Below are positions 38,073-63,210 of a stretch of DNA of 64,000 bases, piece by piece. Origin of the DNA: an uncultured bacterium (lineage in GTDB: Bacteria > Auribacterota > Erginobacteria > Erginobacterales > Erginobacteraceae); the NCBI GenBank assembly GCA_964587835.1, contig CAZPMN010000004.1:14351-78350 (forward strand), written 5' to 3'. A model generated the notes under the pieces. That model was given only the letters and a program-made list of their open reading frames with translations. It ran no database searches and had not been told where the DNA came from. A program made the translations under genes and the position numbers. The stretch's first letter is position 1. The number at the start of each line of letters is the position of its first letter.

Positions 38073-38648
38073 TTAATGACTGCCTTTTAGCTTCCGGATC
38101 AGGGCCAGTTTGAGCATATGGGTGATCACCACGTGGACGTCCTCGACCTCCTCGTAGGAGGAGCTTTTAACCACGATCGGGATGGTGGCCAGAGAGGCCA
38201 GCTGGCCTCCCCCCTTTCCGGTCAGGCCGATGACGATCGCCCCGGCCTCGCGGCCATACTCTGCCGCCCGCAGGACGTTGGGCGAGTTACCGGAGGCGGA
38301 GAGGGCCATCACCACGTCCCCCCTCTTCAGATAGTTCTTCAGCGGTTCGACGAAGACCTTCTCGTAACTGTCGTCGTTGGCCCAGGCGGTCAGCAACGGC
38401 GCGCAGTCGTTGAGGCAGAAGGCCTTCACCCGGGGCTCGCCCTCGACGATACAACCCTTGACCAGGTCGCAGACGAAGTGGGAGGAGGCGGCGGCGCAGG
38501 CCCCGTTGCCGAAGGCGAAGATCTGATTCCCTTTCCTGACCGCTTCTTCCAGGGCCTCGACCGCCCGCTCCATCTCGGGGAAGGGAAGCTCGCTCAAACA
38601 CTGCCGGATCCGTTCGCTGTAATTTCTTAAGAATTCATCCATCCTCAT
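38073..38648 (-). CDS. gmhA: SIS-domain sugar-phosphate isomerase, phosphoheptose isomerase-like
   Basis: FAFGNGACAAASSHFVCDL and SASGNSPNVL motifs; 192 aa. ATG overlaps the upstream gene's TGA (ATGA). The track ORF to 38807 has an Arg/Gly-rich artefactual extension. Confidence 0.7.
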   Translation of the reverse strand: MRMDEFLRNYSERIRQCLSELPFPEMERAVEALEEAVRKGNQIFAFGNGACAAASSHFVCDLVKGCIVEGEPRVKAFCLNDCAPLLTAWANDDSYEKVFVEPLKNYLKRGDVVMALSASGNSPNVLRAAEYGREAGAIVIGLTGKGGGQLASLATIPIVVKSSSYEEVEDVHVVITHMLKLALIRKLKGSH

Positions 38649-40315
38649 TTCTCTCCCGGGCCCGATTTCCGGACCTCTTCCTTGATCCGCTGGATATGTC
38701 CCCTCCCCATCCCCTTGACCTCGCAGCCGAGTTCGAAGTAGCGGCGGATCTCGGCGTCGGAGAGGATGCCGAAACAGTCGATCACCGCGATCGGTCGCCC
38801 CGCCCATCCAACTATCTTCTCCGGGACAAGACCGAGGTATTGCTGGTGTGGGACCGCCAGGATCAGGCCGTCGGCCCCTTTTAGCAAGGCCTCGAGTTCC
38901 TTGCCGACCCGGAGTTCGGTCAGTCCGTCCTGGTTCCGGAAGAACCGGGCCCAGGAGTGGCCGGGGGCGGGGTAGGTATCCTGCTTCTCGAACTCGTACC
39001 AGTGCTCGAGGTAAGGGTCGTGGACCTTCATCTCGGCTCCCATCTCGGTCAATTTGCGGACCACCAGCTCGCTCCCTGAATAACGGCTGTCGCCGACGTC
39101 CTGGCGGTAACTCGCTCCGCAGATCAGGATCGATTTTCCGGCGACGTTCTTGCCCATATTCCGCAGAGCGTCCCGGGTCAGCTCGGCGGCGTGAAGGGCC
39201 CGGGTGTCGTTGATGTCGATGGCGGTGGGGGTGATCTTAAAGAGGCTGTCGCCGTCGGCGAAACCGAGAATATGTTTGTAGGCCCAGTAGCCCAGCCCCC
39301 CGTCCTTGGGCAGGCAGTAGCCGCCGATCCCGGGGCCGGGGAAAATGATATTACTGTGGGTGGGCCGCATCTTGATCGCCTTGATCACCTTGATCAGGTC
39401 GACCCCGTTGCGCTCGGCGAAGAGCGACCACTCGTTGAGGAAAGCCAGGATGGCCGCCCGGTAGGAGTTTTCGACGATCTTAGTCGTCTCCGATTCGATC
39501 GGTCGGTCCATCACCGTCAGTGGAAAGTCTGCGGTGTTGAGGACCTCCCGGAGAAACTTCTCCACCCTCCGGCGGGCTTCGTTCTCGCAGCCTGAGCAGA
39601 CCCGCCAGAAGTCCTGGATGCTGGCCACGTAGTCCCGCCCGGGCATCACCCGCTCGAAACTGTGGGCTAGGAGAGGTATGCTCTCTAATCCCCGTTCCTC
39701 AAAAGCCCTCTTCAGAATCGGCCAGGCCACGAACTCGGTGGTCCCGGGGGCGACCGTGGTCTCGATCAGGACCAGGCAGTCGGGCCGGATGTAGCGGCCG
39801 ATGGTCTTCATCGTTGCCTCCAGGGCGGCCATATCGGCCTCCCCGGAACGCATGTTGCCCAGCTCTTTTTTGGAAAAGTCGCACTGGACATCGACCACCA
39901 CGCAGTCGGCCAGGGCGAGGCACTCGCTGTTGTAGGTGGCGGTCAGGGTCCCGGCCTCGAGGACGCAGTGCCGGATCAGGCGGTCGACTTCGGGGTCCTC
40001 GGCTTTGACCGGGGATTCGCCCCGGTTGAGCAGCGGGATCTTCCAGTAACTGCGGACCGAGGGCCGTTGGCAGCCGATCACGAATTTGCTGTGTTCCCCC
40101 GATTCGTCCCGGGCGTCGGCCACGATCGCTGCCATCACCGCCCCGACGAATCCCACCCCCATCACCACCACCACCTCCCTCCCCTCCCGCCGGGCGGCGT
40201 CGGCCAGTTGGCGCACCCGGTTCAGTTCACCCGCGTATTCCCCCGGCTCTGGAAGGGTAAACTTCTCCCCGGAGGGACTGGCCGAGAAATTCAGCTTTGG
40301 TTTATCTTCAGGCAT
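38645..40315 (-). CDS. Nucleotide-sugar dehydrogenase (UDP-glucose/GDP-mannose dehydrogenase family) with ~45-aa N-terminal extension
   Basis: VVVMGVGFVGAVMAAIVA (NAD-binding); GPGIGGYCLPKDG (catalytic Cys); C-terminal UDPG_MGDP_dh_C-like. Confidence 0.8.
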   Translation of the reverse strand: MPEDKPKLNFSASPSGEKFTLPEPGEYAGELNRVRQLADAARREGREVVVVMGVGFVGAVMAAIVADARDESGEHSKFVIGCQRPSVRSYWKIPLLNRGESPVKAEDPEVDRLIRHCVLEAGTLTATYNSECLALADCVVVDVQCDFSKKELGNMRSGEADMAALEATMKTIGRYIRPDCLVLIETTVAPGTTEFVAWPILKRAFEERGLESIPLLAHSFERVMPGRDYVASIQDFWRVCSGCENEARRRVEKFLREVLNTADFPLTVMDRPIESETTKIVENSYRAAILAFLNEWSLFAERNGVDLIKVIKAIKMRPTHSNIIFPGPGIGGYCLPKDGGLGYWAYKHILGFADGDSLFKITPTAIDINDTRALHAAELTRDALRNMGKNVAGKSILICGASYRQDVGDSRYSGSELVVRKLTEMGAEMKVHDPYLEHWYEFEKQDTYPAPGHSWARFFRNQDGLTELRVGKELEALLKGADGLILAVPHQQYLGLVPEKIVGWAGRPIAVIDCFGILSDAEIRRYFELGCEVKGMGRGHIQRIKEEVRKSGPGEK

Positions 40316-40480
40316 GGGGTCAACCTCATTGGCATTGCCGGCTTAAGGTTTTCACAGTAATCGCGCGTGCGGTCCTCCCCCGGTCTTTGTCCGAAAGACC
40401 AGACTGACCGGCAGTATAATCTAACTGAACCCTCCAGGCAAACAAGAATAGACCTCCCCCTCACCCCGGAGAAGGTAAGT

Positions 40481-42190
40481 TCACCCCGGCGAGTTCGGGG
40501 AGAGAAGTATCCGCCATCCCGGATCAAGGGGGGAAGCCCGCCGACGGTAGACGGTGACGGTCAGGCCGAGATCGGGAAAGTCCCGGCTGCGCCAGGTCTC
40601 AACCAACCCCCGCCGGGCCGCTTCCTCCACGATTTTTCGGGGCCGGTCTACGCGATCTCCCAGCATACTCTGGTTGGAAAGGGTGAGATAGGGCGAGTCG
40701 GGATGTATCCGGAGGACGGCGAAAAAGGCGCAGCGGGGATCTAGATTCCCCACAATTGTTCGCCGTTGGACCAGCCCATGCCATTGCCAGAGGTGGGCTG
40801 AGGCGCAGTTGAGCTGGAAGAGGACCGCCAGGGGATACCCGGGTTTGGTGTTGTTCCAGATAAAATCAAGCACATCCTCCACACTATTCGATCCCAAGCG
40901 GTCGCCGTGCTTCGGCGAGAGGATGTTCTTCGGCTGGTAGATGAAATCCGGGTAGCGGGCCAGGCCGAAAAAGGCTTTCCGGGGCACCCTCTTCGGGGCC
41001 GGTAGGTTGAGCGAGCCCAGGGCGTTGTTTCCGATGATCCGGACGTATTCCGGGAGCCGGGGGAGATCCCCGGCGAGAAGGATCAACCAAACCAGGACGG
41101 TCAGGCGCACGGTCCGGCGATGCAACTGCCGTACCAGGTCGGCCAGGAAGAGGGCGGTCAGGAGGAAGAGGGCCGCCACTGCGGGGGTGGCGATGAACCG
41201 TTCCTGGAGGTTGGGGCTGCGGGCGATCGGAAGCAGGCTTCCCCAGAAGAGGAGGAAGAGAAGCCGGACTCTGAGGTCCCGCCATCTCCGGGCGGCCCAA
41301 ATCAGTCCGCCCAGGTAGGCGGGGAAGAGCCAGGGGGAGAAGGAGTAGGCGGTGAGCAGGGCCCGGGGATAATAGAGAACCCGGTCGCTCATCTCCAGGT
41401 GGAGGAAATCCCATCCGCTGGTCTCGCTTATCCGGTAGAGGATGATGTTGATCTTATCCCCGGCATTTCCTCCGGCCAGCCAGAGAAGCCAGACGCCGGC
41501 GAATGCCGCCGCAAGGATCCAGATCCGATTTAATTCCGCCCGGCATCGCTCGCGGTCCTTCTTTGACAATATGATGCTCAGCCAGAATATGACCAGGCTG
41601 AATCCGAAGAAGATGGCGTAGATGTACTTGGTGAAGTAGAGCAGGGAAAGAAAGACCCCGGCGACGATATACCATATCGGCCGCTGCCCGTCCCGGGCGG
41701 TCAGGTAGGCCAGCAGGGCCGCCAGGGTCAGGAACGTCCCCAGAGATTCGGCCATCGCCGTCCCCGCCAGGTAGCAGAAGAGCGGAGAAAAAACCAGGAG
41801 CCCGGCCGCGATCATCCCGGCCCCTGCACGACCGAAAGAGGCTGCCTTCCGGCCCGTCAGGTAGATGAGGAAGACCGCCCCGACGTTCATCACCAGGCTC
41901 ATAAACCGGGCGGCCTGGTAGGTATATCCCCCGATCAGCAGGAAGACCGAGGAAACCCAGTAATGGAAAAAGGGCCAGTAGATCTGCCGGTTGGTCAGGT
42001 TCCAGAAACCGGCGAAATCTAACTCACTGAGCTGCTCGGCCATCGCCAGGCTGATCAGGGAACGGTGCGCCTCGTCCCAGCCGAACGGCCCCTGGGGCCG
42101 AATCAGGTATAGGTAAATAAAAACTCCCTGCAGAATAATCGCAGATAAAACCGCTGTAATGGCTATGCGGCTGCTGAAGCCCGTTTTCAT
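40481..42190 (-). CDS. GT-C fold polytopic membrane glycosyltransferase (GT39/GT83, ArnT/PMT-like)
   Basis: 12+ TMs; GWDEAHRSL (DE motif) in the first loop; overall ArnT/PMT-like topology. Confidence 0.65.
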   Translation of the reverse strand: MKTGFSSRIAITAVLSAIILQGVFIYLYLIRPQGPFGWDEAHRSLISLAMAEQLSELDFAGFWNLTNRQIYWPFFHYWVSSVFLLIGGYTYQAARFMSLVMNVGAVFLIYLTGRKAASFGRAGAGMIAAGLLVFSPLFCYLAGTAMAESLGTFLTLAALLAYLTARDGQRPIWYIVAGVFLSLLYFTKYIYAIFFGFSLVIFWLSIILSKKDRERCRAELNRIWILAAAFAGVWLLWLAGGNAGDKINIILYRISETSGWDFLHLEMSDRVLYYPRALLTAYSFSPWLFPAYLGGLIWAARRWRDLRVRLLFLLFWGSLLPIARSPNLQERFIATPAVAALFLLTALFLADLVRQLHRRTVRLTVLVWLILLAGDLPRLPEYVRIIGNNALGSLNLPAPKRVPRKAFFGLARYPDFIYQPKNILSPKHGDRLGSNSVEDVLDFIWNNTKPGYPLAVLFQLNCASAHLWQWHGLVQRRTIVGNLDPRCAFFAVLRIHPDSPYLTLSNQSMLGDRVDRPRKIVEEAARRGLVETWRSRDFPDLGLTVTVYRRRASPLDPGWRILLSPNSPG

Positions 42191-43275
42191 TTGCCTTGAG
42201 TCTCAATGAATTCACTGAATGGGACGAATGACTTGCCCTTAACCAAGGGATAATAATGGCGCATAAAATCTCGGTTAACAGCGGTCAAGCACTCGCCGCC
42301 ATACTGGTTGAACCAGTTCAGTTTCAGCGCCCGGTTCCGAATCTTCTCGAGGGGCTCTTTGAAGATATTGCCGAAGACGATATGCATAAAGGGGCACCCG
42401 CAGACATCCCCGTAAGGGGTAAAGTAGAGTACTTCCTTGAGGGCGGGACAGCCCCAGCCCCCATAGTTATTATCAAGGTCTCGGACCACGAATGGGTAGT
42501 TCTTCCGCAGGCGGTAGTAATAATCGCGGTCCTCCTGAGAGAGCATAACTTCCGGGTTCCCGGTCCAGTAACCGAGCGGTCGGGCATAGATGGTCTCCAG
42601 CATAATCCTGTTCCGATGTGAGTAGTCTAAAATCTTCTTCAGTCCCTCCGAGTAAAGATTATCCTTGTGCACCGTGGTGTTGATAACAATCTTGATCTTA
42701 TGCTTCCGGCAGAGCTCGATGTCCTCCATTATTTTGGCGTAGCTACCCGGGTGGTTGCGGAACCGGTCGTGTTCTTCGGCGATGCCGCTGTCCACGCTGA
42801 AGTAGAGGGTATCTATGCCTGTTGAGGCCAGCTTTTCAATGGTTGGTTCGTCGAGGAGGGAGCCGTTGGTTGTAATGATAATGTGGTTTCTCCGCGGGCG
42901 GAAAGCCTCAATGATATCGAAGATGTCTTTACGGATGAACGGTTCCCCACCCTGGAGAGAGAAGACCACTGCCCCGAGTCTTTCCATCTCACGGCAGACC
43001 CTTCGGTAGTCGTCAATCGTCATCACCCGGCGCGGTATGGGACTCTTCAGATTTTCCGCGTAACAATGCGAACAACGGAAGTTGCAGGCATATGTGATAG
43101 CGAAATCAGCCCCCCGAAGGTTGAATTTTTTGATCCCAAGAAGCCTCCAGAATTTGGCCCGGACCAGGTTCCGGACCAATCGGAGCAGGAACATCGGTTT
43201 TCTCCAGTGGAACCCGTATTTGACAATGACGTAAAGACGAAAATAGACTCTTTTAAAAATGTTCATATCTTTCAA
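42187..43275 (-). CDS. Radical SAM protein with C-terminal SPASM/twitch-type Cys cluster
   Basis: ITYACNFRCSHCYA (CX3CX2C), FSLQGGEPFIRKD, C-terminal GGWGCPALKEVLYFTPYGDVCGCPF. Start TTG at 43275 or ATG at 43266. Confidence 0.75.
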   Translation of the reverse strand: MKDMNIFKRVYFRLYVIVKYGFHWRKPMFLLRLVRNLVRAKFWRLLGIKKFNLRGADFAITYACNFRCSHCYAENLKSPIPRRVMTIDDYRRVCREMERLGAVVFSLQGGEPFIRKDIFDIIEAFRPRRNHIIITTNGSLLDEPTIEKLASTGIDTLYFSVDSGIAEEHDRFRNHPGSYAKIMEDIELCRKHKIKIVINTTVHKDNLYSEGLKKILDYSHRNRIMLETIYARPLGYWTGNPEVMLSQEDRDYYYRLRKNYPFVVRDLDNNYGGWGCPALKEVLYFTPYGDVCGCPFMHIVFGNIFKEPLEKIRNRALKLNWFNQYGGECLTAVNRDFMRHYYPLVKGKSFVPFSEFIETQGK

Positions 43276-43290: not shown

Positions 43291-44328
43291 TTAGTGTTTC
43301 TGGACAAATCCGACTAGCGTCCCAGCGACGCGGCTGATCTCCCCTGCTCCGTAGCCGATGTGGGTCAGGCAGATAGCCAGGAATACATGAAGTACCAAAC
43401 GCGGTCTACCAGCCCGGAATGCGGACCAGATACTTTGGGCCAGAACCAAGGGAAAGTATAATAAGGGTGCAAAAAAATATGCTCGAAAAAAGCCAAGGCC
43501 GGAGAGAACCAAGGCAATCACCAATAGCGCTGGTAACGCGTAGGCCAGGTTCAGCATTTCCGGATGCCGGACCAGAAGAGTCCCCCGGGCGCGGCCGTAT
43601 CTCAACATATTTCTCCACCAGCTCTTTGGAGAAGGGCGATACTTGTGAAATACCATTGGCCGGGGATCGTAGAAAAGCCTCCGACCGAACCTCAGGATCC
43701 GATAGGAGAACTCAGCATCCTCCCCCTCGCTCTTCAGCTCTTCATCGAAGTAGCCGAGCTCCTTGAAAAGAGCTTTTTCGTAGATAACGTTAAGCGTCGG
43801 CAGATCGACCACGTTTTTCTTCCGCTTAAGGTTTTTCCCACTCACCCTCCCCCCGCTGGCTAGATAGGTATTGAGTCCAATCTTCACCGCTATGGCGAAG
43901 TCACCGGCCTCCTCCGGGATCAATGCCGGGCCGCCGACAGCAGCGACCTGATTATCCGCAGCGGTCGCTTCCCGCCAAGCCAGGACCAAGTTTGCGATCC
44001 ATTCCGGGGGGACCACGCAGTCGGCGTCGGTAAAGGCGACCAGTCCGAACCGGGCTTGCCGAACTCCGGTATTCCGGGCCGCCGCGGTGCCCCTCTTCGG
44101 CTCCCGGACGTACCGAATCCGCCGATCCCGCTTTGCATAGGATTCAATGATGGGAATTGTCCCGTCGGTGGAGTCTCCGTCCACCACTAGGACCTCATAG
44201 TCCCCGGCCCGGTAGCTCTGGCCCAGGAGGGATTCCAGGCAGGCGGCGATGTTCTCCCTCTCGTTGTAGCTGACCACGATGATGGAGACATTCATTCCGG
44301 ACTGGTTGTCGGCACCGGGGTGATTCAT
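43291..44328 (-). CDS. Family 2 glycosyltransferase with C-terminal TM region
   Basis: VSIIVVSYNERENI...YEVLVVDGDSTDGT...FTDADCVV are GT2 DxD/ED motifs. ATGA overlap with the upstream gene. Confidence 0.8.
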   Translation of the reverse strand: MNHPGADNQSGMNVSIIVVSYNERENIAACLESLLGQSYRAGDYEVLVVDGDSTDGTIPIIESYAKRDRRIRYVREPKRGTAAARNTGVRQARFGLVAFTDADCVVPPEWIANLVLAWREATAADNQVAAVGGPALIPEEAGDFAIAVKIGLNTYLASGGRVSGKNLKRKKNVVDLPTLNVIYEKALFKELGYFDEELKSEGEDAEFSYRILRFGRRLFYDPRPMVFHKYRPSPKSWWRNMLRYGRARGTLLVRHPEMLNLAYALPALLVIALVLSGLGFFRAYFFAPLLYFPLVLAQSIWSAFRAGRPRLVLHVFLAICLTHIGYGAGEISRVAGTLVGFVQKH

Positions 44329-45785: not shown

Positions 45786-46438
45786 TTCCGCGCCTGGATG
45801 ATGATATCCGCCCGGAGCAGATGATGGAAGACCCAGTTGACAGCCGGGGGAAAACGATATACACAGCTGCTCTTCCGGGTGGAAATAACCCGGAAATAGC
45901 GGCCGACCAGTCGCCGGAACCGGGCGACAGTTAATTCCCTTTCGTGGGTATGGTCACGGATCAGCAACTTGTAGAGCAGGTTGCAGGCCGCGTACTTCAT
46001 ATTGGTCCCGATGACCAGGATCCCTCCCGGTTTCAGGACGCGGTGCAGTTCTTTCAGCAGCCTTTCCTGATCCCGGGTATGTTCTATCACGTTATAGCAG
46101 AGTATCCGGTCGAAGGAATCGCTCCTGAAGCTCAATCTGAACAGATCTTCCCGGAGGAGATCAAGCTCGGGATACTGTCTTTTGGCCAGTTTGAGCGCGG
46201 CGGCCGAGAAGTCTACCCCTACCCCCCTACTCCCCGGCGTGCAGACATAGTCCAGGAGGTATCCGATCCCGGTTCCGGCGTCCAGAACGATATCCCCTGC
46301 CCTGGGGTCTAATAATCTCTTGCTCCAGTAAAAACTGGGAATGGTATCCAGATCGTAAGCCGGGAGAGCTCCGTGGTGGCTTTGATAATACCCCTCGGTA
46401 TAGGCCTCGGGGTAGCTTCTCCGGCTTCGATCTTTCAT
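45782..46438 (-). CDS. Class I SAM-dependent methyltransferase
   Basis: DIVLDAGTGIGYLLDY (motif I), VLKPGGILVIGT. ATG 46438 chosen; the track ORF to 46957 has an Arg/Gly/Pro-rich extension. Confidence 0.7.
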   Translation of the reverse strand: MKDRSRRSYPEAYTEGYYQSHHGALPAYDLDTIPSFYWSKRLLDPRAGDIVLDAGTGIGYLLDYVCTPGSRGVGVDFSAAALKLAKRQYPELDLLREDLFRLSFRSDSFDRILCYNVIEHTRDQERLLKELHRVLKPGGILVIGTNMKYAACNLLYKLLIRDHTHERELTVARFRRLVGRYFRVISTRKSSCVYRFPPAVNWVFHHLLRADIIIQARK

Positions 46439-49214: not shown

Positions 49215-49218
49215 GGTG

Positions 49219-57704: not shown

Positions 57705-58687
57705 AACCCCTGGTCTCCGCGATCATCCCCGCCCACGGCCGCGTTTCCCCGGTCCTGGCCTGCCTGAATTCCCTCTCCGCCTCTGATTACGACCGTCTGG
57801 AGATCATCGTCGTGGACGACTGCTCCCCGGAGAACATCTCGGCCCGGGTGGCGGCGGAATTCCCCTCGGTCCGGACGGTGCGGCTGCCGGAGAACCGGGG
57901 GGCCGCCGGGGCGAGGAACGAGGGGATGCGCCACGCCCGGGGAGAGTACTTCTTCTTTGTCGACAGCGATGTCCTGGTCGAAAGCAACACCCTGGGACTC
58001 CTGGTCGAGGCCGCCGCCCGCGAGCCGGCTTGCGGTGCAATCGGTCCGGTGGTCCGCTACCGCTCCAGTCGTCGGACCTACTTCGTCCGGACCCGGATCG
58101 ACCTGGATACCGGCCGGACCTATTACGACCGGGAGCTTCCCCGGGAGGGCGGGGTGCTGGAGACGCACCATATCCCCTGCCTCTGGCTGGTCGCCCGGAA
58201 GGTGGTCGAGAAGGTAGGGATAATGGATCCGATCTACCGGACTTACTACGAGGAATCGGACTGGCAGGGCCGGATGGGCCGGGCGGGGTTCCGGAACCTG
58301 GTCTGTCTCTCCGCCGCCGCCGATCACGATGTCCCGGACAGCCGGGGCATCGCCGGGATCCTCGCCGGGATGTCCGCGGGGGATCCGGACAAGGCGGTTT
58401 ACCACCTCTACCACCTGGCAAGAAACCGGACCATCTTTATGAAGAAGTTCGCCGGGCGGCTCCAGTACCTCCGGTTCCTCTTTCTCTACAACCAGCTCTT
58501 CTTCCTCTATTACTCCTTCAGGCTGATCTCCCGGTCCGGGCCGGCCTTTGCCGGCGCCTACCTCCGCGGTTTCCTCCGCGGGCTGTTCGATGCCCGCCGG
58601 GTCGCCCGGATCGTCAAGGGGACGGAAGACCGGGAGAGGCTTCCGCTTCCGCCCCTTTCCGGATCAAGTCCCCCCTCCTCCGTCTGA
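57701..58687 (+). CDS. Family 2 glycosyltransferase
   Basis: VSAIIPAHGR...LEIIVVDDCSPEN...FFFVDSDVLV. GTG overlaps the upstream TGA. Confidence 0.8.
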   Translation: MKPLVSAIIPAHGRVSPVLACLNSLSASDYDRLEIIVVDDCSPENISARVAAEFPSVRTVRLPENRGAAGARNEGMRHARGEYFFFVDSDVLVESNTLGLLVEAAAREPACGAIGPVVRYRSSRRTYFVRTRIDLDTGRTYYDRELPREGGVLETHHIPCLWLVARKVVEKVGIMDPIYRTYYEESDWQGRMGRAGFRNLVCLSAAADHDVPDSRGIAGILAGMSAGDPDKAVYHLYHLARNRTIFMKKFAGRLQYLRFLFLYNQLFFLYYSFRLISRSGPAFAGAYLRGFLRGLFDARRVARIVKGTEDRERLPLPPLSGSSPPSSV

Positions 58688-59368
58688 ACCGTTCCGGGCA
58701 GCGCCCGCCTCCACAAAGTAGGTTGACCAGCCGCGCTTCCGCCGGTATTCCCGACCCCGCCCTGCCTCCAGGAATTCCTTCCCCGGAACCTCGCGGCGCG
58801 CCAGCCACTTGCAGGGGTAGAAGAGGAGCATACTTAAGACCTCGAAGAATCCGCCGGCGGACCAGACCCGGAGGGGCTGAAAGCCGCTTCGGGCCAGTAT
58901 ATTCAGGAGTTTATCGCGGCGGTAATGACGGTGGCCCGCGTACCAGGCGGGGTCGGTCAGGGTTGACCGGAGATCGAATTTGGGCGTCGAGAGCAGGAGC
59001 CGACCGTCGGGCTTGAGAACCCGCCTGACCTCCCGGAGGGATTCGCCGACCGAATCCGTCGCCAGGTGTTCGAGAACCTCCCACATCACCACCAGATCGA
59101 ACCATTCACCTCGGAAGGGCAGCGCGGGAAGCCGGCCCCGGAGGAATTCGGCGCCGGGCACCTCGCGGGCGGCGGCAGCCAGACTTTTCTGGTCCCGGTC
59201 GAGCCCCACCGCCCGACGGCAGCCTACCTTCACCACCCCCGCCTCGAACCAGCCGTTTCCGCAGCCGATGTCAAGGACTGCCTGTTTCGTCAGATCTCCC
59301 GCCGCCGCCACCGATGCCGTGTGCCTTCCCGTCCAGCGGGCGGCGATTGATTCGGAATATCTTTTCAT
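58664..59368 (-). CDS. Class I SAM-dependent methyltransferase
   Basis: VLDIGCGNGWF (motif I), DLVVMWEVLEHL, VLKPDGRLLL. ATGA overlap with the upstream GT2. Confidence 0.7.
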   Translation of the reverse strand: MKRYSESIAARWTGRHTASVAAAGDLTKQAVLDIGCGNGWFEAGVVKVGCRRAVGLDRDQKSLAAAAREVPGAEFLRGRLPALPFRGEWFDLVVMWEVLEHLATDSVGESLREVRRVLKPDGRLLLSTPKFDLRSTLTDPAWYAGHRHYRRDKLLNILARSGFQPLRVWSAGGFFEVLSMLLFYPCKWLARREVPGKEFLEAGRGREYRRKRGWSTYFVEAGAARNGSDGGGGT

Positions 59369-60195
59369 CTCTGTCCGGAGATTGGGGAAGCGAGATAAAC
59401 CAGGCCGACCGCCAGTCTTAGAAAGATCATCCCGCCGGCCAGAAGCGGATGACAGATCAGCTTCTTCCACTTCCTCTCTTCCAGGAATACGCCGAGGTAG
59501 CGATAGTAGAGGCCGAACTGTTTCTTGATCTCGGGGTCTTCTCTCCCCCACTTGGCGATATATTCGGCGAAACCCCGGCTATAGTAACGTTTCTTCGCCA
59601 GATAATGGCGGAGGCAGAACAGGCCCTCGTTGTGGAAGATCACCGCATCGGCGAGTCCTGCCTTTCCGCCGGCCCGGAGCCGGCGGTCAAAGTCCCAGTC
59701 TTCAGGGCCGTTGAGATTTTCGTCGAAACCGCCGATCTTTAGGGCCGCCGCCCGGGGGAAGAACCGGGCGGCATCAATGCAGGTCCCGTCGTAAAAACTT
59801 CGCTCAAAGTCACGGACCTTGATCCAGAACCCCTCCCCGATAATGCGTTCCGGGATATAAAGGCCGGCCAGCCCCTCGCGACTGGACTTCTCCAGGCACT
59901 TCCCGATCAGTCCCTCCCCCAGGACCATATCAGCATCGAGGTAGAGGATGTACCTTCCCCGGGCCTGGGCGATCCCGAAGTTCCGCTGGGCCGAGCGCTC
60001 GGGACCGTGGTCGAAGACCAAATGGGTGAACCGGGAGGCGATCTCCTTGGTCCGATCGGAGGAATCGTTATCAACCACGATGATCTCCAGTTTCTCCCGG
60101 GGGTAGTCCTGGCGGAGAACCGACTCCAGGCAGGAGGCGATGTGCTTCTCCTCGTTCCGGGTGGTAACAACTATCGAGACGTCGATCAGTGCCAT
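59365..60195 (-). CDS. Family 2 glycosyltransferase
   Basis: VSIVVTTRNEEKHI...LEIIVVDNDSSDRT...ILYLDADMVL. Confidence 0.8.
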   Translation of the reverse strand: MALIDVSIVVTTRNEEKHIASCLESVLRQDYPREKLEIIVVDNDSSDRTKEIASRFTHLVFDHGPERSAQRNFGIAQARGRYILYLDADMVLGEGLIGKCLEKSSREGLAGLYIPERIIGEGFWIKVRDFERSFYDGTCIDAARFFPRAAALKIGGFDENLNGPEDWDFDRRLRAGGKAGLADAVIFHNEGLFCLRHYLAKKRYYSRGFAEYIAKWGREDPEIKKQFGLYYRYLGVFLEERKWKKLICHPLLAGGMIFLRLAVGLVYLASPISGQR

Positions 60196-60247
60196 AAATA
60201 GACGATAGCTTCCCTTTCCTGATGTGGCACTCCAACGGAGTGCCACA

Positions 60248-61603
60248 TCATATCAGTACGTTTTTTTCCTCTGACTCTGACTGGGGGTTTATCTCCATCC
60301 CTAGCCCTGTCGGACGCTGGAAGAGGCTCGGGGTGAGGAAGAGAGTTCCCAGGAAAGAGAGGCAGCCGAAGATGTTGAGGATGAGGAGAACCTCCCGCAG
60401 ACCGGGATGCCAGAGATAGATCGCCGCCGCCTGACCCACCGCGGCGATCAGGAGAAACTTGATGAACCGGGTGGAGCCGACCGAGAGGTTGTAGAAAATC
60501 TCCAACCAGAGCAGAGAATAGAAACTCATTGCCAGGGCGAAGAGGCCGACCAGGGAGACAATCTCGGAGTCGGTCTTTCCGGTCAGGATTCCCAAAACCA
60601 GACTCGGAGCCAGCCAGCAGACCGCGGTCGCTGAACCCGAGAGCAGCGCGGCTAGTTTCAAACCCCGGTGGAAGAGGTGGATGCTGGAGGAGTTGATAGC
60701 CTTGAGCGAGGCGGCCTTGGGAAAAACCACCAGGGCCACCGCGGCCGGGAGAAAGAGGATAATCTTCCCCACCATCTGGGCCACCGAGTAGTAGCCCGCT
60801 TCCTGCGGGGAGAAGAAGGCCTTGACCAGGGTAATGTCTATGTTGGTTAGGATGGCGAAAGAGAGCAAGGCCAGCATCGTGGGGATGATATATCGGTAGA
60901 TCGGTCCCATTGTCGGGGAGGGCAGCACCGATGGCAAGGTGCGGCGGCGGAAATATCCCCGGATCAGCCGGACCCCGATCAGGAGCATCAGGGCCGGGGC
61001 GAATAAATAGCCGGAGAGTGCCCCCGCCACTCCGGCTCCGGCCAGAACCAATCCGATTCCGAGAACAAGCTTGGTCAGGGCGTAGGAGACATTGAGGAGG
61101 GCCAGGGGGCTGAACTTCTGGGCCCCCTGGAGAAAGGCCGCCGGGAGGCAGGCGGGCAGGTGGACCGCCACTACCAGGCCCAGGATGTAGAAGAGGCTGA
61201 CGGCGTCAATCTGCTGGGCCCGGGCCAGGGGGCCGGCGGCGATAAAAAAGACCAGCAGGAGTCCTCCCGCTCCGATTCCCAGGTCGCGGCCGGCTCGTTT
61301 CACGGTTGCCGCCGCCATGGCCAGCCTTCCCCGGGCGATCTCCTCGGCGAAGAACCTGGCCAGGGCCGGCTGGATGGCGGCGGTCAGCTGGCCGAAGAAG
61401 ACGGTGAAGACCACCAGGGAGTTGAGGACGCCGTAGTTCTCCACCTCGAGGAGACGGACCATCAGGAGGTGGAAGATGAGGTTGATCACCCCGGCCAGTT
61501 GGGTCCCGGCCATCGTGATCCCGGCGTGGCGGATGAAGTCGTCTCTTAAAATTTTTTTTCCAAAAATTTTAAGATCGAGGATTCTGTTCTTGAAATCTTC
61601 CAT
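60248..61603 (-). CDS. wzx: Polysaccharide biosynthesis protein / Wzx-like flippase (MOP superfamily)
   Basis: About 12-14 TMs, typical PST-family length and architecture. ATG 61603 chosen. Confidence 0.7.
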   Translation of the reverse strand: MEDFKNRILDLKIFGKKILRDDFIRHAGITMAGTQLAGVINLIFHLLMVRLLEVENYGVLNSLVVFTVFFGQLTAAIQPALARFFAEEIARGRLAMAAATVKRAGRDLGIGAGGLLLVFFIAAGPLARAQQIDAVSLFYILGLVVAVHLPACLPAAFLQGAQKFSPLALLNVSYALTKLVLGIGLVLAGAGVAGALSGYLFAPALMLLIGVRLIRGYFRRRTLPSVLPSPTMGPIYRYIIPTMLALLSFAILTNIDITLVKAFFSPQEAGYYSVAQMVGKIILFLPAAVALVVFPKAASLKAINSSSIHLFHRGLKLAALLSGSATAVCWLAPSLVLGILTGKTDSEIVSLVGLFALAMSFYSLLWLEIFYNLSVGSTRFIKFLLIAAVGQAAAIYLWHPGLREVLLILNIFGCLSFLGTLFLTPSLFQRPTGLGMEINPQSESEEKNVLI

Positions 61604-61699: not shown

Positions 61700-61704
61700 A
61701 GTGT

Positions 61705-63210
61705 CTATTGAAAGTCGCGGAGGTGGCCCCAGACCTTCTTCCCGGCCCGGAGAAAGTATCGGATATCCGACCAGTTTCGGATACTGATGACTTTCCGGGC
61801 CAGGAAGAGGGGATTATAAGCAATCGAGTACATTCCTCGAACCAGTTTCATCAAATCCTTCTCCGGGAAGGGAGTCTTCATCACCGGCCGTTTCATATCA
61901 TAGTTGGGCCAGTCTTCGGTTAGCAGCCAGCCATTCTCCTTACACTCTTGATAGAGGGGGGTTCCAGGATACGGAACCACCACCGTTGCCTGCATCGTAT
62001 AGGCCCAGCCCTTCTTCAACAGGAAGCGACCCAGTTCAAAGGTGTTCCGGGCCTGTTCGTAACTTTCCCAGGGGTAACCGAACATAATCGTGATGTGGGG
62101 ATAGAGGCCGGCCCGGCGGGCATTCCGGCAGGAATCGATGATCGTCTCCACCTTCAGGTTCTTGTTCAGTCGGTCCAGGGTTTCCTGGTTGCCGCTCTCC
62201 AGTCCGAAGAGGAGGAAGCGGAAGCCCGCTTCCTTCATCAGCCGGTAATCATCCGCCGAGGCGGCCCCGAAGCGGAAGTTGCAGTCGAACCCCACCTTCC
62301 GGTTAAAGCCGCGATCCACCGCCCCCCGGCAGAAATCGCGCAGCCATTCGCCCCGGGGGAAGGTCCCGGTATCGTCCATTATCTCCCGGACCGGGTACCG
62401 GCCGGTGATTTGCCCGATCTCGTCGAGAACATTTCCCACCGTCCGGACCCGGAACTTCGGATAGAGTCCGGTCCAACTGCAGAAGGTGCACTTTCCCCAC
62501 CAGCAGTCCCGCCCGCTCATAATGTAGGTCCCCGGAGTCCGTCGATAGTTGCCGTTCCGGTAGGCGTAGAGTTCCCACTTGGTCAGTTCCCGGTCGATGA
62601 AGGGGACTCCATCGAGATCGTGGTTGAGTTGGAAGGGGCCGGTGTTCTTGATCTCTCCGCCGTCGCGGTACCAGATTCCCGCAGGGAGGGAATGGGGTGT
62701 TGGGGAATGGAGAATGGATTTTGGGGAATGGGGAATGGGGAATGGGGAATGGTCCAGAACCCGGCAGAGATCGCGGAGGAGGAAGTCGTAGTCGCCGCCG
62801 GTGAGGACGTAATCGACCGGCGAGTTGGCCAGGGACTCTTCGGGGAGAGCGGTGACGTGGTCACCACAAAGAACAGTAAGCGGTAAGCGGTGAGCGGTAA
62901 GCGGCAACTGCTTGATCTCGCTGATGAGCTTCCAGTGCTCCCGGATCACCGGGGTCTTGGTCTCAAAGACGATCAGATCGGGTTTCTCCCGCTCCAGCAT
63001 CCGGAAGTATGCCTCCCGCTCGATCCCTTCGGCGGCGCAGTCGTTCCAGATCACCCGATAGCCGGCATCGCGGAGCATCGTGGCGGCGGAGGCCGGGACC
63101 ACCGGATAGATGAAGGTCGGCTCGCTGAAGTACTGGAACTGCCGGTTCTGCCCCAGTGTGGGAAACCCCTTGGCTCTATCGAGGGGCGGGTATGAGAAGA
63201 TAATCTTCAC
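61705..63210 (-). CDS. B12-binding domain radical SAM protein carrying two in-frame insertions encoded by heptad tandem repeats
   Basis: MKIIFSYPP... B12-binding-like N-domain; SGRDCWWGKCTFCSW Cys motif; radical SAM core (FGLESGNQETL). Linker residues HSPFPIPHSPKSILHSPTPHS are encoded by ggggaat repeats, and LPLTAHRLPLTVL by cggtaag repeats. Confidence 0.8.
   Translation of the reverse strand: MKIIFSYPPLDRAKGFPTLGQNRQFQYFSEPTFIYPVVPASAATMLRDAGYRVIWNDCAAEGIEREAYFRMLEREKPDLIVFETKTPVIREHWKLISEIKQLPLTAHRLPLTVLCGDHVTALPEESLANSPVDYVLTGGDYDFLLRDLCRVLDHSPFPIPHSPKSILHSPTPHSLPAGIWYRDGGEIKNTGPFQLNHDLDGVPFIDRELTKWELYAYRNGNYRRTPGTYIMSGRDCWWGKCTFCSWTGLYPKFRVRTVGNVLDEIGQITGRYPVREIMDDTGTFPRGEWLRDFCRGAVDRGFNRKVGFDCNFRFGAASADDYRLMKEAGFRFLLFGLESGNQETLDRLNKNLKVETIIDSCRNARRAGLYPHITIMFGYPWESYEQARNTFELGRFLLKKGWAYTMQATVVVPYPGTPLYQECKENGWLLTEDWPNYDMKRPVMKTPFPEKDLMKLVRGMYSIAYNPLFLARKVISIRNWSDIRYFLRAGKKVWGHLRDFQ
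62685..62752. repeat. GGGGAAT-type heptad tandem array (4 perfect units at 62723-62750 plus degenerate flanking units) inside the B12-rSAM coding region
   Basis: ggagggaatggggtgttggggaatggagaatggattttggggaatggggaatggggaatggggaatgg read directly. Confidence 0.6.
62874..62908. repeat. CAGTAAG/CGGTAAG/CGGTGAG heptad array inside the B12-rSAM coding region, same family as the his-operon spacers but stop-bearing orientation on the non-coding (plus) strand
   Basis: cagtaag cggtaag cggtgag cggtaag cggcaac read at 62874-62908. Confidence 0.6.

What the first reader, a model, noticed from the sequence alone, without database searches (positions are those of the whole stretch)
38073..63210. ~25-kb glycan/glycolipid biosynthesis supercluster unusually enriched in radical SAM enzymes and methyltransferases
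Twenty-one co-oriented, mostly overlapping genes: GmhA-like isomerase, nucleotide-sugar dehydrogenase, 5 GT2 (one DPM1/ArnC-like polyprenyl-P-sugar synthase), 2-3 GT-C/DUF2079 polytopic membrane proteins, Wzx-like flippase, 4 class I SAM methyltransferases, 3 B12-binding rSAM, 1 SPASM rSAM and 1 further rSAM. Five radical SAM enzymes in a glycan cluster is highly atypical. B12-rSAMs usually do C-methylation or other radical alkylations, so this implies heavily C-modified sugars or lipids. No precursor-peptide ORF was found, which argues against a RiPP interpretation. Pervasive ATGA/GTGA overlaps indicate a single translationally coupled operon.
Basis: partly seen in the sequence, partly recalled or inferred. 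Interest (0 to 1): 0.75.

Follow-up and report, generated by a model that had tools for sequence, protein, structure and literature searches.

The report
Mosaic envelope-glycan locus with radical SAM enzymes
This is a real cell-surface sugar-polymer gene cluster, probably from a little-known bacterial phylum (Candidatus Auribacterota), that has acquired a mobile cassette of uncharacterised radical SAM sugar-tailoring enzymes found in many anaerobes, including a pig pathogen's plasmid.

Summary
The 21 genes and their family assignments are real: 5 radical SAM (rSAM) proteins, 4 class I methyltransferases, 5 GT2, 3 GT-C-type membrane proteins, a Wzx-like flippase, a nucleotide-sugar dehydrogenase and a SIS isomerase. 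Two corrections apply. G16 and G17 lie on the + strand, so there are at least three transcription units. The locus is also a mosaic rather than one unit.

A backbone (G21, G20, G19, G18, G13, G12, G11, G9, G3, G1) is conserved next to the his operon in three Candidatus Auribacterota genomes. The block G8-G4, with G10, G2 and G16, is absent or different there. Its core is an rSAM (G6), a membrane GT2 (G5) and an rSAM/SPASM protein (G4). This core recurs at 40-63% identity in many anaerobic phyla and on Lawsonia intracellularis plasmid A.

G6 scores best against the HpnJ model (below its cut-off; 34% identity to genuine HpnJ), not against any methylase family. No precursor peptide was found.

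Best reading: a strain-variable envelope-glycan locus whose sugars are tailored by O-methylation and by anaerobic radical chemistry of unknown type. Similar multi-rSAM glycan loci recur, and I found no functional study of one.

The parts
38073..38648 (-). G1, SIS-domain sugar-phosphate isomerase of the GmhA/DiaA type. Part of the backbone.
   Evidence: Pfam SIS_2 69 bits. GmhA models 94-102 bits, below their cut-offs. Orthologs of 60-75% identity lie next to hisD in Auribacterota. ATGA overlap with the G2 stop.
38645..40315 (-). G2, nucleotide-sugar dehydrogenase (556 aa). Not in the backbone.
   Evidence: All three UDPG_MGDP_dh domains. TIGR03026 188.6 bits against a cut-off of 189.8. Best equivalog model is UDP-ManNAc dehydrogenase at 138 bits, far below its cut-off. 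Absent from L087, L088 and L089.
40481..42190 (-). G3, GT-C glycosyltransferase of the PMT_2 (ArnT/PMT-like) family. Part of the backbone.
   Evidence: PF13231 37 bits against a cut-off of 26.1. Orthologs of 36% identity in L088 and L089, downstream of the G9 ortholog.
42187..43266 (-). G4, radical SAM enzyme with a SPASM-type C-terminal domain. Part of the cassette.
   Evidence: Radical_SAM 93 bits, SPASM 28 bits, motif CNFRCSHC. Homologs of 40-57% identity lie beside G6 homologs in many phyla. No equivalog model reached.
43291..44328 (-). G5, GT2 glycosyltransferase with a hydrophobic C-terminal tail read as membrane-spanning. Part of the cassette.
   Evidence: Glycos_transf_2 113 bits. The hydrophobic tail is read from the translation and was not tested with a topology tool. 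A homologous GT2 is directly adjacent to the G6 homolog in 57 of 81 genome loci. ATGA overlap with G6.
44325..45785 (-). G6, class-B-architecture radical SAM enzyme, sister family of HpnJ. Core of the cassette.
   Evidence: B12-binding 35 bits plus Radical_SAM 74 bits. HpnJ model 376 bits against a cut-off of 577.6, matched over its full length. 34% identity to annotated HpnJ of Mycetohabitans. More than 6400 homologs, 50-66% identical across phyla.
45782..46438 (-). G7, class I SAM methyltransferase. Part of the cassette.
   Evidence: Methyltransf_11 81 bits. A methyltransferase family clusters near G6 homologs in 24 loci. It is not G7's own family: only 3 loci hold a G7 hit covering at least 60% of it, at no more than 30% identity. 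ATGA overlap with G6.
46450..47850 (-). G8, B12-binding radical SAM enzyme. Part of the cassette.
   Evidence: B12-binding 83 bits plus Radical_SAM 104 bits. Best model is BchE at 233 bits against a cut-off of 481. A 43% homolog in Syntrophobacter L031 lies just upstream of the G4-G6-G5 homologs.
47847..49214 (-). G9, polytopic membrane protein with a GT-C fold, restricted to Auribacterota. Part of the backbone.
   Evidence: Only 14 homologs, and all named ones are Auribacterota. Model pLDDT 82.5, pTM 0.87. Top PDB matches are STT3, EmbB, ALG3, ALG9, DPY19 and PimE. Y135-F136-D137-D138 is invariant across the family; the model places it in the loop after the fourth long helix (H105-131).
49219..50358 (-). 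G10, GT2 of the polyprenyl-phosphate-sugar synthase type (DPM1/AglJ/ArnC-like), with a C-terminal membrane domain.
   Evidence: AglJ model 169 bits, dolichyl-P-hexose transferase 92, PpgS 69, ArnC 57, all below their cut-offs. PF26629 GT2_TM_C is on record for this protein. Homologs of 55-58% identity lie directly upstream of G6 homologs in L003 and L004. No counterpart lies between G11 and G9 in the other Auribacterota.
50358..51548 (-). G11, membrane protein of unknown family with a carbohydrate-binding-module-like beta-sandwich, read as facing outward. Constant partner of G9. Part of the backbone.
   Evidence: No Pfam or NCBIfam hit. Orthologs of 47-50% identity lie immediately upstream of the G9 ortholog in L087, L088 and L089. 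The model has an N-terminal helix, then a beta-sandwich at residues 58-170 that matches CBM6/16/22/29/61 at E about 1e-5. The outward orientation is inferred, not tested. The family is small.
51830..53860 (-). G12, DUF2079 polytopic membrane protein. Part of the backbone.
   Evidence: PF09852 153 bits. Orthologs of 41-48% identity in L087, L088 and L089. GTGA overlap with G13.
53857..54672 (-). G13, class I SAM methyltransferase. Part of the backbone.
   Evidence: Methyltransf_11 51 bits. A 43% ortholog precedes the DUF2079 gene in L087. GC3 is 0.485, an outlier.
54724..55446 (-). G14, class I SAM methyltransferase.
   Evidence: Methyltransf_23 76 bits. No clear ortholog in the relatives.
55490..56467 (-). 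G15, GT2 glycosyltransferase. ATG 56467 is the preferred start.
   Evidence: Glycos_transf_2 91 bits. The longer TTG start at 56611 lies inside an intergenic repeat.
56673..57704 (+). G16, radical SAM enzyme of an uncharacterised family, on the + strand.
   Evidence: Radical_SAM 45.6 bits, motif CTFQCANC near the N-terminus. No PDB relative by sequence. About 1600 homologs, named only 'radical SAM' or 'hypothetical'. In two other contigs it lies among or beside glycosyltransferase genes. Absent from L087.
57701..58687 (+). G17, GT2 glycosyltransferase, on the + strand and translationally coupled to G16.
   Evidence: Glycos_transf_2 119 bits. GTGA overlap with G16. Its 3' end overlaps that of G18 by 24 nt, convergently. 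A GT2 of opposite orientation occupies the same place in L087 (32% identity).
58664..59368 (-). G18, class I SAM methyltransferase. Part of the backbone.
   Evidence: Methyltransf_11 67 bits. 49% ortholog in L087. ATGA overlap with G19.
59365..60246 (-). G19, GT2 glycosyltransferase. Part of the backbone.
   Evidence: Glycos_transf_2 91 bits. Orthologs of 60-63% identity in L087 and L089.
60248..61603 (-). G20, Wzx-like (MOP family) flippase. Part of the backbone.
   Evidence: Polysacc_synt 50 bits, Polysacc_synt_3 42 bits. Orthologs of 48-52% identity.
61705..63210 (-). G21, class-B-like radical SAM enzyme with a CX4CX2C motif. First gene of the backbone.
   Evidence: Radical_SAM 51 bits. B12-binding 28 bits, below the cut-off. 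HpnJ model 134 bits. Orthologs of 71-75% identity in L087 and L089 carry the same CWWG[KR]CTFC motif.

Best explanation
The region is a cell-envelope glycan or glycoconjugate biosynthesis locus, probably from a Candidatus Auribacterota (PVC group) bacterium. It is built from two layers.

Layer 1 is a phylum-conserved backbone next to the his operon:
- a class-B-like rSAM enzyme (G21), a Wzx-like flippase (G20), GT2 enzymes (G19, G17, G15) and O-methyltransferase-type enzymes (G18, G13);
- three GT-C-type membrane transferases (G12 DUF2079, G9, G3 PMT_2);
- a membrane protein with a CBM-like domain (G11) and a SIS isomerase (G1).

Layer 2 is strain-specific and horizontally mobile:
- the G8-G7-G6-G5-G4 block, which sits in the slot between G9 and G3;
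- the polyprenyl-phosphate-sugar-synthase-like GT2 (G10), the nucleotide-sugar dehydrogenase (G2) and the rSAM enzyme G16.

Proposed working (inferred, not shown):
1. Cytoplasmic GT2 enzymes assemble a lipid-linked oligosaccharide, which the flippase exports.
2. G10 makes a polyprenyl-phosphate monosaccharide.
3. The GT-C enzymes use that donor outside the membrane to extend the glycan or attach it to its acceptor. The acceptor is unknown: protein, lipid or polysaccharide.
4. The class I methyltransferases O-methylate sugars.
5. The rSAM enzymes perform oxygen-independent tailoring of nucleotide- or lipid-linked sugars. G6, together with its constant partner GT2 (G5), would remodel a membrane-bound sugar in the way proposed for HpnJ, or perform a dehydration or deoxygenation. 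A methyl transfer is not the first expectation for G6.

The variable layer would give strain-specific surface chemistry, as in O-antigen and capsule loci.
For: - Family assignments of all 21 genes.
- GT-C fold of G9 and CBM-like domain of G11.
- Taxon: G9 has only 14 homologs, and all named ones are Auribacterota.
- Backbone synteny next to hisD in Euphemobacter (L087), an unnamed relative (L088) and Tritonobacter (L089). Orthologs are 36-75% identical, and the content between G9 and G3 differs in each genome.
- Cassette mobility: G6 homologs are 50-66% identical across Chloroflexota, Omnitrophota, Scalindua, Magnetococcales, Desulfobacterota, Patescibacteria and Firmicutes. A GT2 is adjacent in 57 of 81 loci. 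G4-like rSAM, SIS, GHMP kinase, NTP-transferase, DUF218 and a small GT2 with DUF2304 recur nearby. By contrast G2, G3, G9, G11, G12 and G20 are never near G6 homologs elsewhere.
- A 55% ortholog of G6 lies on Lawsonia plasmid A, in a glycan cluster with six methyltransferases.
- GC3 is lower in G4, G5 and G7 (0.67-0.68) than in the neighbouring G1-G3 and hisD (0.78-0.83), and G13 is an outlier at 0.485.
- G10 homologs sit directly upstream of G6 homologs in the two closest loci.
- G6 against HpnJ: 376 bits over the full length, 34% identity to annotated HpnJ.
- HpnJ and Cds are reported or proposed to contract lipid-linked sugars to cyclitols (PMC13459092).
Against: - No initiating phosphoglycosyltransferase, Wzy polymerase, chain-length regulator or outer-membrane exporter was recognised in the window. 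The assembly route is therefore incomplete, or its genes lie elsewhere.
- The acceptor and the product are unknown.
- None of the five rSAM proteins reaches the cut-off of any characterised family, so their chemistry is only an analogy. C-methylation by G8, G21 or even G6 cannot be excluded.
- The GHMP kinase and nucleotidyltransferase that accompany the cassette elsewhere are missing here. The sugar being tailored may therefore differ.
- The taxon assignment rests on glycan-locus genes and synteny, not on marker genes.
- The Foldseek E-values for G9 are weak (0.05 and above), although the top hits are consistent.
Confidence: 0.7

Rival explanations
1. All 21 genes form one dedicated pathway for a glycan or glycolipid that is heavily C-methylated, and the three B12-type rSAM enzymes act as cobalamin-dependent C-methyltransferases.
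For: G6 and G8 have Pfam-supported B12-binding plus rSAM domains. Most characterised class B enzymes are methylases (PMC12931638, PMC9204698). Four further methyltransferases in the locus show that methylation is a theme. Tight gene overlaps are present.
Against: No methylase family model is reached. HpnR, TsrM, PhpK, KedN5 and Mmp10-type models score 50-150 bits against cut-offs of 360-700, while HpnJ and BchE score highest. The B12-binding match of G21 is below threshold. The locus is a mosaic with two genes on the opposite strand.
Confidence: 0.15
2. A lipid head-group pathway. G5 glycosylates a membrane lipid and G6 contracts the sugar to a carbocyclic cyclitol ether, as proposed for HpnI/HpnJ on hopanoids and for Cds on archaeal tetraethers. 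On this view the locus mainly makes a glycolipid rather than a polysaccharide.
For: G6 is the sister family of HpnJ. G5 has a hydrophobic C-terminal tail and is its constant neighbour. Ring contraction of lipid-linked sugars by rSAM enzymes has precedent (PMC13459092).
Against: No squalene-hopene cyclase, HpnH, HpnI or HpnK, and no lipid-synthesis gene, was found in the window or among the recurrent neighbours. G5 does not match the HpnI model. Many carriers, such as Patescibacteria and Dehalococcoidia, are not known hopanoid producers (my own knowledge). The flippase, five GT2 and three GT-C enzymes point to an oligo- or polysaccharide.
Confidence: 0.1
3. A RiPP or other secondary-metabolite cluster, in which the rSAM/SPASM and B12-rSAM enzymes modify a peptide or small molecule and the glycosyltransferases decorate it.
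For: G4 has the rSAM/SPASM architecture typical of peptide maturases, and several NCBIfam maturase models match weakly. ApyD and RiPP C-methylase models match G8 at 92-166 bits.
Against: No precursor-like ORF lies in any gap, and the gaps are short. There is no peptidase, leader-recognition protein or ABC exporter. The G4 family travels with sugar-activation genes. All matches are far below the model cut-offs.
Confidence: 0.03

Closest known systems
HpnI/HpnJ/HpnK step of bacteriohopanepolyol side-chain synthesis (formation of BHT cyclitol ether)
   Same: G6 aligns over its full length with the HpnJ model (376 bits) and is 34% identical to annotated HpnJ. Like hpnJ beside hpnI, it is paired with a GT2 that appears membrane-anchored.
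   Different: The score is below the HpnJ cut-off of 577.6. No HpnI, HpnK, HpnH or cyclase is in the window. The context is a flippase and GT-C glycan locus. The family occurs in phyla not known for hopanoids. HpnJ's own reaction has never been shown in vitro (PMC13459092).
Three-component polyprenyl-phosphate-sugar glycosylation systems (ArnC/ArnT, GtrA/GtrB/GtrC, DPM1/PMT, AglJ-type)
   Same: G10 resembles AglJ, DPM1 and ArnC-type synthases. Three GT-C-type membrane proteins (G3, G9, G12) could use such a donor outside the membrane.
   Different: All similarities are below the equivalog cut-offs. No GtrA- or ArnE/F-type small flippase was found. The donor sugar and the acceptor are unknown. 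No described system of this kind that I know of includes rSAM tailoring enzymes.
Wzx/Wzy-dependent O-antigen, capsule and S-layer glycan loci with variable regions
   Same: It has a Wzx-like flippase, several GT2 enzymes, sugar-nucleotide enzymes and methyltransferases. It shows the mosaic pattern of conserved flanks around an exchangeable middle, with heterogeneous GC3.
   Different: No initiating transferase, Wzy, Wzz or Wza was recognised. Five rSAM enzymes are present.
Plasmid-borne glycan clusters with rSAM genes in gut anaerobes: Lawsonia intracellularis plasmid A and the Brachyspira hyodysenteriae 36-kb plasmid
   Same: Lawsonia plasmid A carries a 55% ortholog of G6 with a SIS protein, GT2 enzymes and six class I methyltransferases. 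The Brachyspira plasmid carries six rSAM genes among glycosyltransferase and rfb genes (PMC4267127).
   Different: Lawsonia also has a GHMP kinase and a HAD hydrolase (a heptose-type activation set) that the window lacks, and different large membrane proteins (DUF2142, DUF6077). The Brachyspira rSAM genes did not appear as homologs of G4, G6 or G8. Neither cluster has a known product.
AprD4, the radical SAM diol dehydratase of apramycin biosynthesis (PDB 6fd2)
   Same: It is the best solved-structure relative by sequence of G6, G8 and G21 (84, 97 and 36 bits). It is a sugar-modifying rSAM enzyme with a B12-like N-terminal domain that does not bind cobalamin (PMC12931638).
   Different: The match covers only the rSAM core and is shared by all three proteins, so it says nothing specific about any of them. 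The partner reductase AprD3 and aminoglycoside genes are absent.

Membership tests
HpnJ (hopanoid-associated radical SAM protein, TIGR03471) | Score at or above the curated equivalog cut-off of 577.6 bits | tested here: not met
   G6 376 bits, G8 188 bits, G21 134 bits.
HpnJ (hopanoid-associated radical SAM protein, TIGR03471) | Genomic context with hpnI, hpnK, hpnH and squalene-hopene cyclase | tested here: not met
   None of these was found in the window or among the recurrent neighbours of G6 homologs. Genuine hpnJ in Mycetohabitans lies beside hpnK.
Class B (cobalamin-dependent) radical SAM enzymes | N-terminal B12-binding Rossmann domain followed by a radical SAM core with a cysteine triad | tested here: met
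   Met for G6 (35.2 bits) and G8 (83.4 bits), against a cut-off of 32.1, both with CX3CX2C. G21 is below threshold (28.1 bits) and has CX4CX2C.
Class B (cobalamin-dependent) radical SAM enzymes | Actual cobalamin binding and use | not testable with these tools
   AprD4 and ArsL show that this architecture does not guarantee cobalamin binding (PMC12931638).
Characterised B12-rSAM methyltransferases (HpnR, TsrM, PhpK, KedN5, Mmp10-type, RiPP C-methylases) | Score at or above the curated cut-off of any of these family models | tested here: not met
   All scores are 48-168 bits against cut-offs of 282-700. HpnP, GenK and Fom3 models did not appear in the shown hit lists (best 25 for G6 and G8, all 16 for G21).
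RiPP maturation system with an rSAM/SPASM maturase | A precursor-peptide gene next to the maturase | tested here: not met
   The gaps hold only short ORFs with no support, and the G5/G4 and G4/G3 junctions leave no room.
RiPP maturation system with an rSAM/SPASM maturase | Membership of a named maturase family | tested here: not met
   Best maturase models score 62-99 bits against cut-offs of 400-850.
Wzx/Wzy-dependent polysaccharide locus | MOP-family flippase | tested here: met
   G20: Polysacc_synt 50.3 bits against 28.2; Polysacc_synt_3 41.8 bits against 23.
Wzx/Wzy-dependent polysaccharide locus | Initiating phosphoglycosyltransferase, Wzy polymerase and chain-length/export proteins | tested here: not met
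   No such Pfam or NCBIfam family was found among the 21 genes or the other window ORFs scanned. Wzy proteins are hard to recognise, so their absence is not proven.
Polyprenyl-phosphate-sugar synthase plus GT-C glycosylation system (ArnC/ArnT, GtrB/GtrC, AglJ type) | GT2 synthase of the DPM1/GtrB/ArnC/AglJ type | tested here: inconclusive
   G10: AglJ 169 bits against 325, dolichyl-P-hexose transferase 92 against 375, ArnC 57 against 529. GT2_TM_C domain is on record.
Polyprenyl-phosphate-sugar synthase plus GT-C glycosylation system (ArnC/ArnT, GtrB/GtrC, AglJ type) | GT-C fold transferase | tested here: met
   G3 is PMT_2 above the cut-off. The G9 model matches GT-C structures. G12 is DUF2079; that DUF2079 belongs to the GT-C clan is my own recollection and was not tested. 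A profile comparison of G9 with G3 and G12 was uninformative.
GDP/ADP-heptose pathway (GmhA, HddA/HldE, GmhB, HddC) | GmhA equivalog together with a kinase, a phosphatase and a nucleotidyltransferase | tested here: not met
   G1 is below the GmhA cut-offs. No homolog of the L031 GHMP kinase or NTP-transferase is in the window. These genes do accompany the cassette in L031 and on Lawsonia plasmid A.

The most novel reading that the evidence does not exclude
The pair formed by the HpnJ-like rSAM enzyme (G6) and its constant partner GT2 (G5) is a widespread, mobile two-enzyme unit. It would convert a membrane-bound sugar into a ring-rearranged building block, either carbocyclic (cyclitol-type) or deoxygenated, for envelope glycans of strict anaerobes. 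That would make it an oxygen-independent route to a class of surface sugars not yet described. The unit is more than 50% identical from Patescibacteria to anammox bacteria and the pathogen Lawsonia.
Probability: 0.15. Interest if true: 0.8.

Novelty: new variant of a known kind. Interest (0 to 1): 0.55.

Why it matters
Surface glycans of uncultivated anaerobes are almost unknown. This locus adds three things.

- A whole phylum (Auribacterota) keeps a dedicated glycan locus with three GT-C enzymes and a conserved rSAM enzyme carrying an unusual CX4CX2C motif.
- A very widespread and highly conserved rSAM family, sister to HpnJ, moves between phyla together with a GT2 and sugar genes, yet has no known reaction.
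- The same family sits on plasmid A of Lawsonia intracellularis. That plasmid is reported to be transcribed only in the pathogenic variant (PMC3463550). A culturable organism is therefore available in which the chemistry, and a possible role in host interaction, could be tested.

The result would bear on rSAM enzymology (non-methylating class B enzymes), on anaerobic routes to modified sugars, and on surface variation.

Tried and rejected
- Rfam scan (gathering thresholds) and tRNA scan of the whole window: nothing, so no cobalamin or SAM riboswitch was detected.
- Promoter and terminator consensus scans: no more sites than in shuffled sequence, so they were not used.
- Literature searches for multi-rSAM glycan clusters, DUF2079 and anammox S-layer glycan genes. 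There were no hits for DUF2079. The Kuenenia S-layer glycan paper reports methylated sugars but does not link them to rSAM genes.
- Exact-sequence look-ups to find the NCBI record and organism name: only a 15-kb Logan contig of run SRR8186049 was returned.
- hhalign of the G9 family profile against G3 and G12: probabilities of 1-2%, uninformative.
- PDB sequence search for G16: no hit. For G4 only generic rSAM matches came back (SkfB, MoaA, BlsE, about 40 bits).
- The AprD4 match was first read as specific to G6. It turned out to be shared by G8 and G21, so it was dropped as specific evidence.
- Plasmid searches with G4 and G8: no close homologs, and no Brachyspira hit.
- A lipid reading based on the weak Tes and GDGT-MAS matches of G16 and G4 (26-33 bits) was rejected as generic rSAM similarity.

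Full report
**What is in the sequence**

I numbered the genes G1 to G21 from low to high coordinate.

| Gene(s) | Assignment |
|---|---|
| G1 | SIS_2-domain isomerase of the GmhA/DiaA type |
| G2 | 556-aa nucleotide-sugar dehydrogenase |
| G3 | PMT_2 GT-C transferase |
| G4 | radical SAM (rSAM) enzyme with a SPASM domain |
| G5, G10, G15, G17, G19 | GT2 glycosyltransferases |
| G6, G8 | B12-binding plus rSAM |
| G7, G13, G14, G18 | class I SAM methyltransferases |
| G9, G11 | membrane proteins with no Pfam match |
| G12 | DUF2079 |
| G16 | rSAM enzyme without an accessory domain |
| G20 | Polysacc_synt (Wzx-like) flippase |
| G21 | rSAM enzyme whose B12-binding match is just below Pfam's cut-off |

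- Four rSAM proteins have the canonical CX3CX2C motif. G21 has CX4CX2C.
- Eight junctions are 4-nt ATGA/GTGA overlaps.

**Two errors in the observation**

- G16 (56673-57704) and G17 (57701-58687) are encoded on the + strand. The minus-strand ORFs over them translate to low-complexity sequence.
- The region therefore holds at least three transcription units: G21-G18 (-), G16-G17 (+) and G15-G1 (-). They are separated by a 205-nt divergent gap and a 24-nt convergent overlap. The long unit also has internal gaps of 281 nt (G12/G11) and 165 nt (G3/G2).
- Consensus promoter and terminator scans were no better than shuffled sequence. Rfam (gathering thresholds) and tRNA scans found nothing.

**The unknown membrane proteins**

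- G9 has only 14 homologs among 5.8 billion clustered proteins. Every named one comes from Candidatus Auribacterota (Euphemobacter, Tritonobacter, 'Aureabacteria'), and one carries PMT_2.
- An AlphaFold model of G9 built from these sequences (pLDDT 82.5, pTM 0.87) has GT-C enzymes as its best PDB matches: STT3, EmbB, ALG3, ALG9, DPY19 and PimE. Foldseek probabilities are 0.93-1.0, although E-values are only 0.05-0.9.
- A YFDD motif is invariant in the G9 family, and the model places it in a loop between membrane helices.
- G11 belongs to a small family (156 representatives at E up to 1e-3). Its model shows an N-terminal helix, a beta-sandwich resembling carbohydrate-binding modules (Foldseek E about 1e-5), two long helices and a C-terminal alpha/beta domain.
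- The locus therefore holds three GT-C-type proteins, plus a protein I read as a glycan-binding membrane partner.

**The locus is a mosaic**

Looking up G9 homologs gave three syntenic loci next to the his operon.

- L087, Euphemobacter frigidus, has orthologs of G21 (75%), G20 (48%), G19 (63%), G18 (49%), G13 (43%), G12 (48%), G11 (50%), G9 (43%) and G1 (60%). It lacks G2 to G8, G10 and G16.
- L089, Tritonobacter, runs G21-G20-G19-G18 ... G12-G11-G9-G3, with nothing between G9 and G3.
- L088 has two GT2 genes, an unknown gene and a single B12-rSAM gene in that slot.
- In the window the slot holds G8-G7-G6-G5-G4. G10 is inserted between G11 and G9, and G2 between G3 and G1.
- GC3 is lower in G4, G5 and G7 (0.67-0.68) than in the flanking G1-G3 and hisD (0.78-0.83), and G13 is an outlier at 0.485.

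**The cassette is widespread and mobile**

- G6 has more than 6400 homologs. They remain 50-66% identical across Chloroflexota/Dehalococcoidia, Omnitrophota, Scalindua/Brocadiaceae, Magnetococcales, Desulfobacterota, Patescibacteria, Dependentiae and Oscillospiraceae.
- In 81 genome loci a G5-like GT2 is directly adjacent in 57.
- Other recurrent neighbours are G4-like rSAM genes, further B12-rSAM genes, a methyltransferase, a small GT2 with DUF2304, DUF218, SIS, a GHMP kinase and a sugar 4,6-dehydratase.
- A Syntrophobacter contig (L031) reads: small GT2, DUF2304, TPR protein, NTP-transferase, GHMP kinase, SIS, DUF218, G8-like, G4-like, G6-like, G5-like, methyltransferase, GT4. That is a heptose-type activation set followed by the rSAM block.
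- Homologs of G2, G3, G9, G11, G12 and G20 are never found near G6 elsewhere.
- The two closest G6 relatives (63%) have a G10-like GT2 immediately upstream.
- A 55% ortholog lies on the 27-kb plasmid A of Lawsonia intracellularis. Its neighbours are a SIS protein, a GHMP kinase, a HAD-IIIA hydrolase, GT2 genes, two DUF2304 genes, a second rSAM gene, six class I methyltransferases and two large DUF membrane proteins.
- A transcriptome study reports that plasmid A is expressed only in the pathogenic variant. It lists LIA017 ('bchE, Fe-S oxidoreductase') among the most expressed plasmid A genes (PMC3463550). I did not verify that LIA017 is the G6 ortholog.
- The G16 family (about 1600 members, unnamed) also lies among or beside glycosyltransferase genes in the two other contigs examined.

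**How unusual is the rSAM density?**

It is unusual against textbook polysaccharide loci. Among relatives it is less so.

- Of 41 G6-centred loci of at least 19 kb, 22 hold at least 3 rSAM ORFs and 7 hold at least 5. A Scalindua locus has seven. These loci were selected for containing G6, so the figures describe recurrence, not background frequency.
- A 36-kb Brachyspira hyodysenteriae plasmid with six rSAM genes among glycosyltransferase and rfb genes was linked to virulence in 2014 (PMC4267127). It did not appear as homologous in my plasmid searches.
- I found no paper that assigns a reaction to any of these families.

**What the rSAM enzymes may do**

No rSAM protein reaches a curated family cut-off.

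- G6 scores 376 bits on HpnJ over the full length (cut-off 577.6; next best BchE at 139) and is 34% identical to annotated HpnJ.
- G8 scores best on BchE (233 bits). G21 scores best on HpnJ (134 bits).
- Methylase models (HpnR, TsrM, PhpK, KedN5, Mmp10-type) score much lower.
- The best solved relative of all three is AprD4. It is a sugar diol dehydratase that does not bind cobalamin, but the match is generic to the rSAM core (PMC12931638).
- HpnJ is inferred from genetics to contract hopanoid-bound glucosamine to a cyclitol ether. The archaeal Cds is proposed to do the same on tetraether-bound glucose. Neither has been reconstituted (PMC13459092).
- The inference that B12-type domains imply C-methylated sugars is therefore not supported for G6 and is open for G8 and G21.
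- A RiPP role is unlikely. The gaps hold no credible precursor ORF, and G4 travels with sugar genes.

**Most likely working, and its weak points**

Shown: the gene families, the backbone-and-cassette structure, and the wide distribution of the cassette.

Inferred:
1. GT2 enzymes build a lipid-linked glycan on the cytoplasmic face, and G20 flips it.
2. G10 supplies a polyprenyl-phosphate sugar.
3. G3, G9 (working with G11) and G12 transfer sugars outside the membrane to an unknown acceptor.
4. The four methyltransferases O-methylate.
5. The rSAM enzymes tailor sugars without oxygen.

Weak points:
- No initiating transferase, polymerase or exporter was recognised.
- The kinase and nucleotidyltransferase that accompany the cassette elsewhere are absent here.
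- The taxon call rests on this locus alone.

**Verdict**

It is not a single operon, its rSAM richness recurs in anaerobes, and C-methylation is not the best-supported chemistry. It is a new variant of a known kind, a variable envelope-glycan locus.

Its most valuable component is an uncharacterised, very widespread HpnJ-like rSAM enzyme with a partner GT2, for which Lawsonia offers an experimental handle. Interest is moderate (0.55). It would be high if the ring-rearrangement reading proved true.

Noticed in passing
window 51570-51625, 56550-56620, 55447-55458, 21956-22034: A short intergenic repeat (core GTCATTGCGAGG, followed in three copies by GAAGCAATCTCAAC) lies in the G12/G11 gap, in the G15/G16 divergent gap, just upstream of the G14 start, and as an inverted pair near 22 kb. 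There are 5 core matches against 0.32 expected. It makes the long TTG start of G15 unlikely.
   Followed up: partly
window 61705-63210 (G21, aa 236-244); L087 and L089 orthologs: G21 has a non-canonical CX4CX2C iron-sulfur motif (CWWGKCTFC). It is conserved in Auribacterota orthologs that are 71-75% identical. The other four rSAM proteins have CX3CX2C.
   Followed up: partly
L090 (Lawsonia intracellularis plasmid 1/A, NC_008012.1): Apart from partition and toxin-antitoxin genes, most of the 27-kb plasmid is a glycan cluster. It holds a 55% ortholog of G6, a second rSAM gene, six class I methyltransferases, a SIS protein, a GHMP kinase, a HAD-IIIA hydrolase, GT2 genes, two DUF2304 genes, DUF2142 and DUF6077. 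The literature reports that the plasmid is transcribed only in the pathogenic variant.
   Followed up: partly
L002 (Candidatus Scalindua, GCA_031316235.1, locus 393-13145): Seven rSAM genes (five with a B12-binding domain) lie in a row with DUF218, a GT2, a methyltransferase and a DegT-type aminotransferase. This is an even denser version of the cassette.
   Followed up: no
window 53857-54672 (G13): The GC3 of this methyltransferase gene is 0.485, against 0.64-0.86 for its neighbours, although an ortholog exists in Euphemobacter. The cause is unknown.
   Followed up: no
window 49204-50343 (+): A 379-aa ORF on the + strand mirrors G10 almost exactly. Its translation is low-complexity, so it is an antisense artefact of the GC-rich gene. 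The same holds for 52343-53950 (+) over G12.
   Followed up: yes
window 63370-64000 (+): A small antitoxin-like ORF is followed by an overlapping ORF whose N-terminal sequence looks like a PIN-domain (VapC-like) toxin. The pair lies just beyond the start of G21 and has the best promoter-like site of the scanned region (63295-63323). The assignment was read from the sequence only.
   Followed up: no
window 160-12660 and 25827-27907: Upstream genes encode large secreted or surface-type proteins: a Sortilin/BNR-like protein, an FG-GAP repeat protein, a 1032-aa papain-family protease with a CarboxypepD_reg domain, and TPR proteins. A mannose-1-phosphate guanylyltransferase-like gene lies at 25827-26987, about 11 kb from the cluster, next to a DUF559/MTES_1575 endonuclease-like gene.
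   Followed up: no
L089 (Tritonobacter, locus 13233-21407): Directly after the backbone locus come a TMEM260-like (protein O-mannosyltransferase-type) gene and four large TPR-repeat proteins. This hints that proteins could be the glycosylation targets in this phylum.
   Followed up: no
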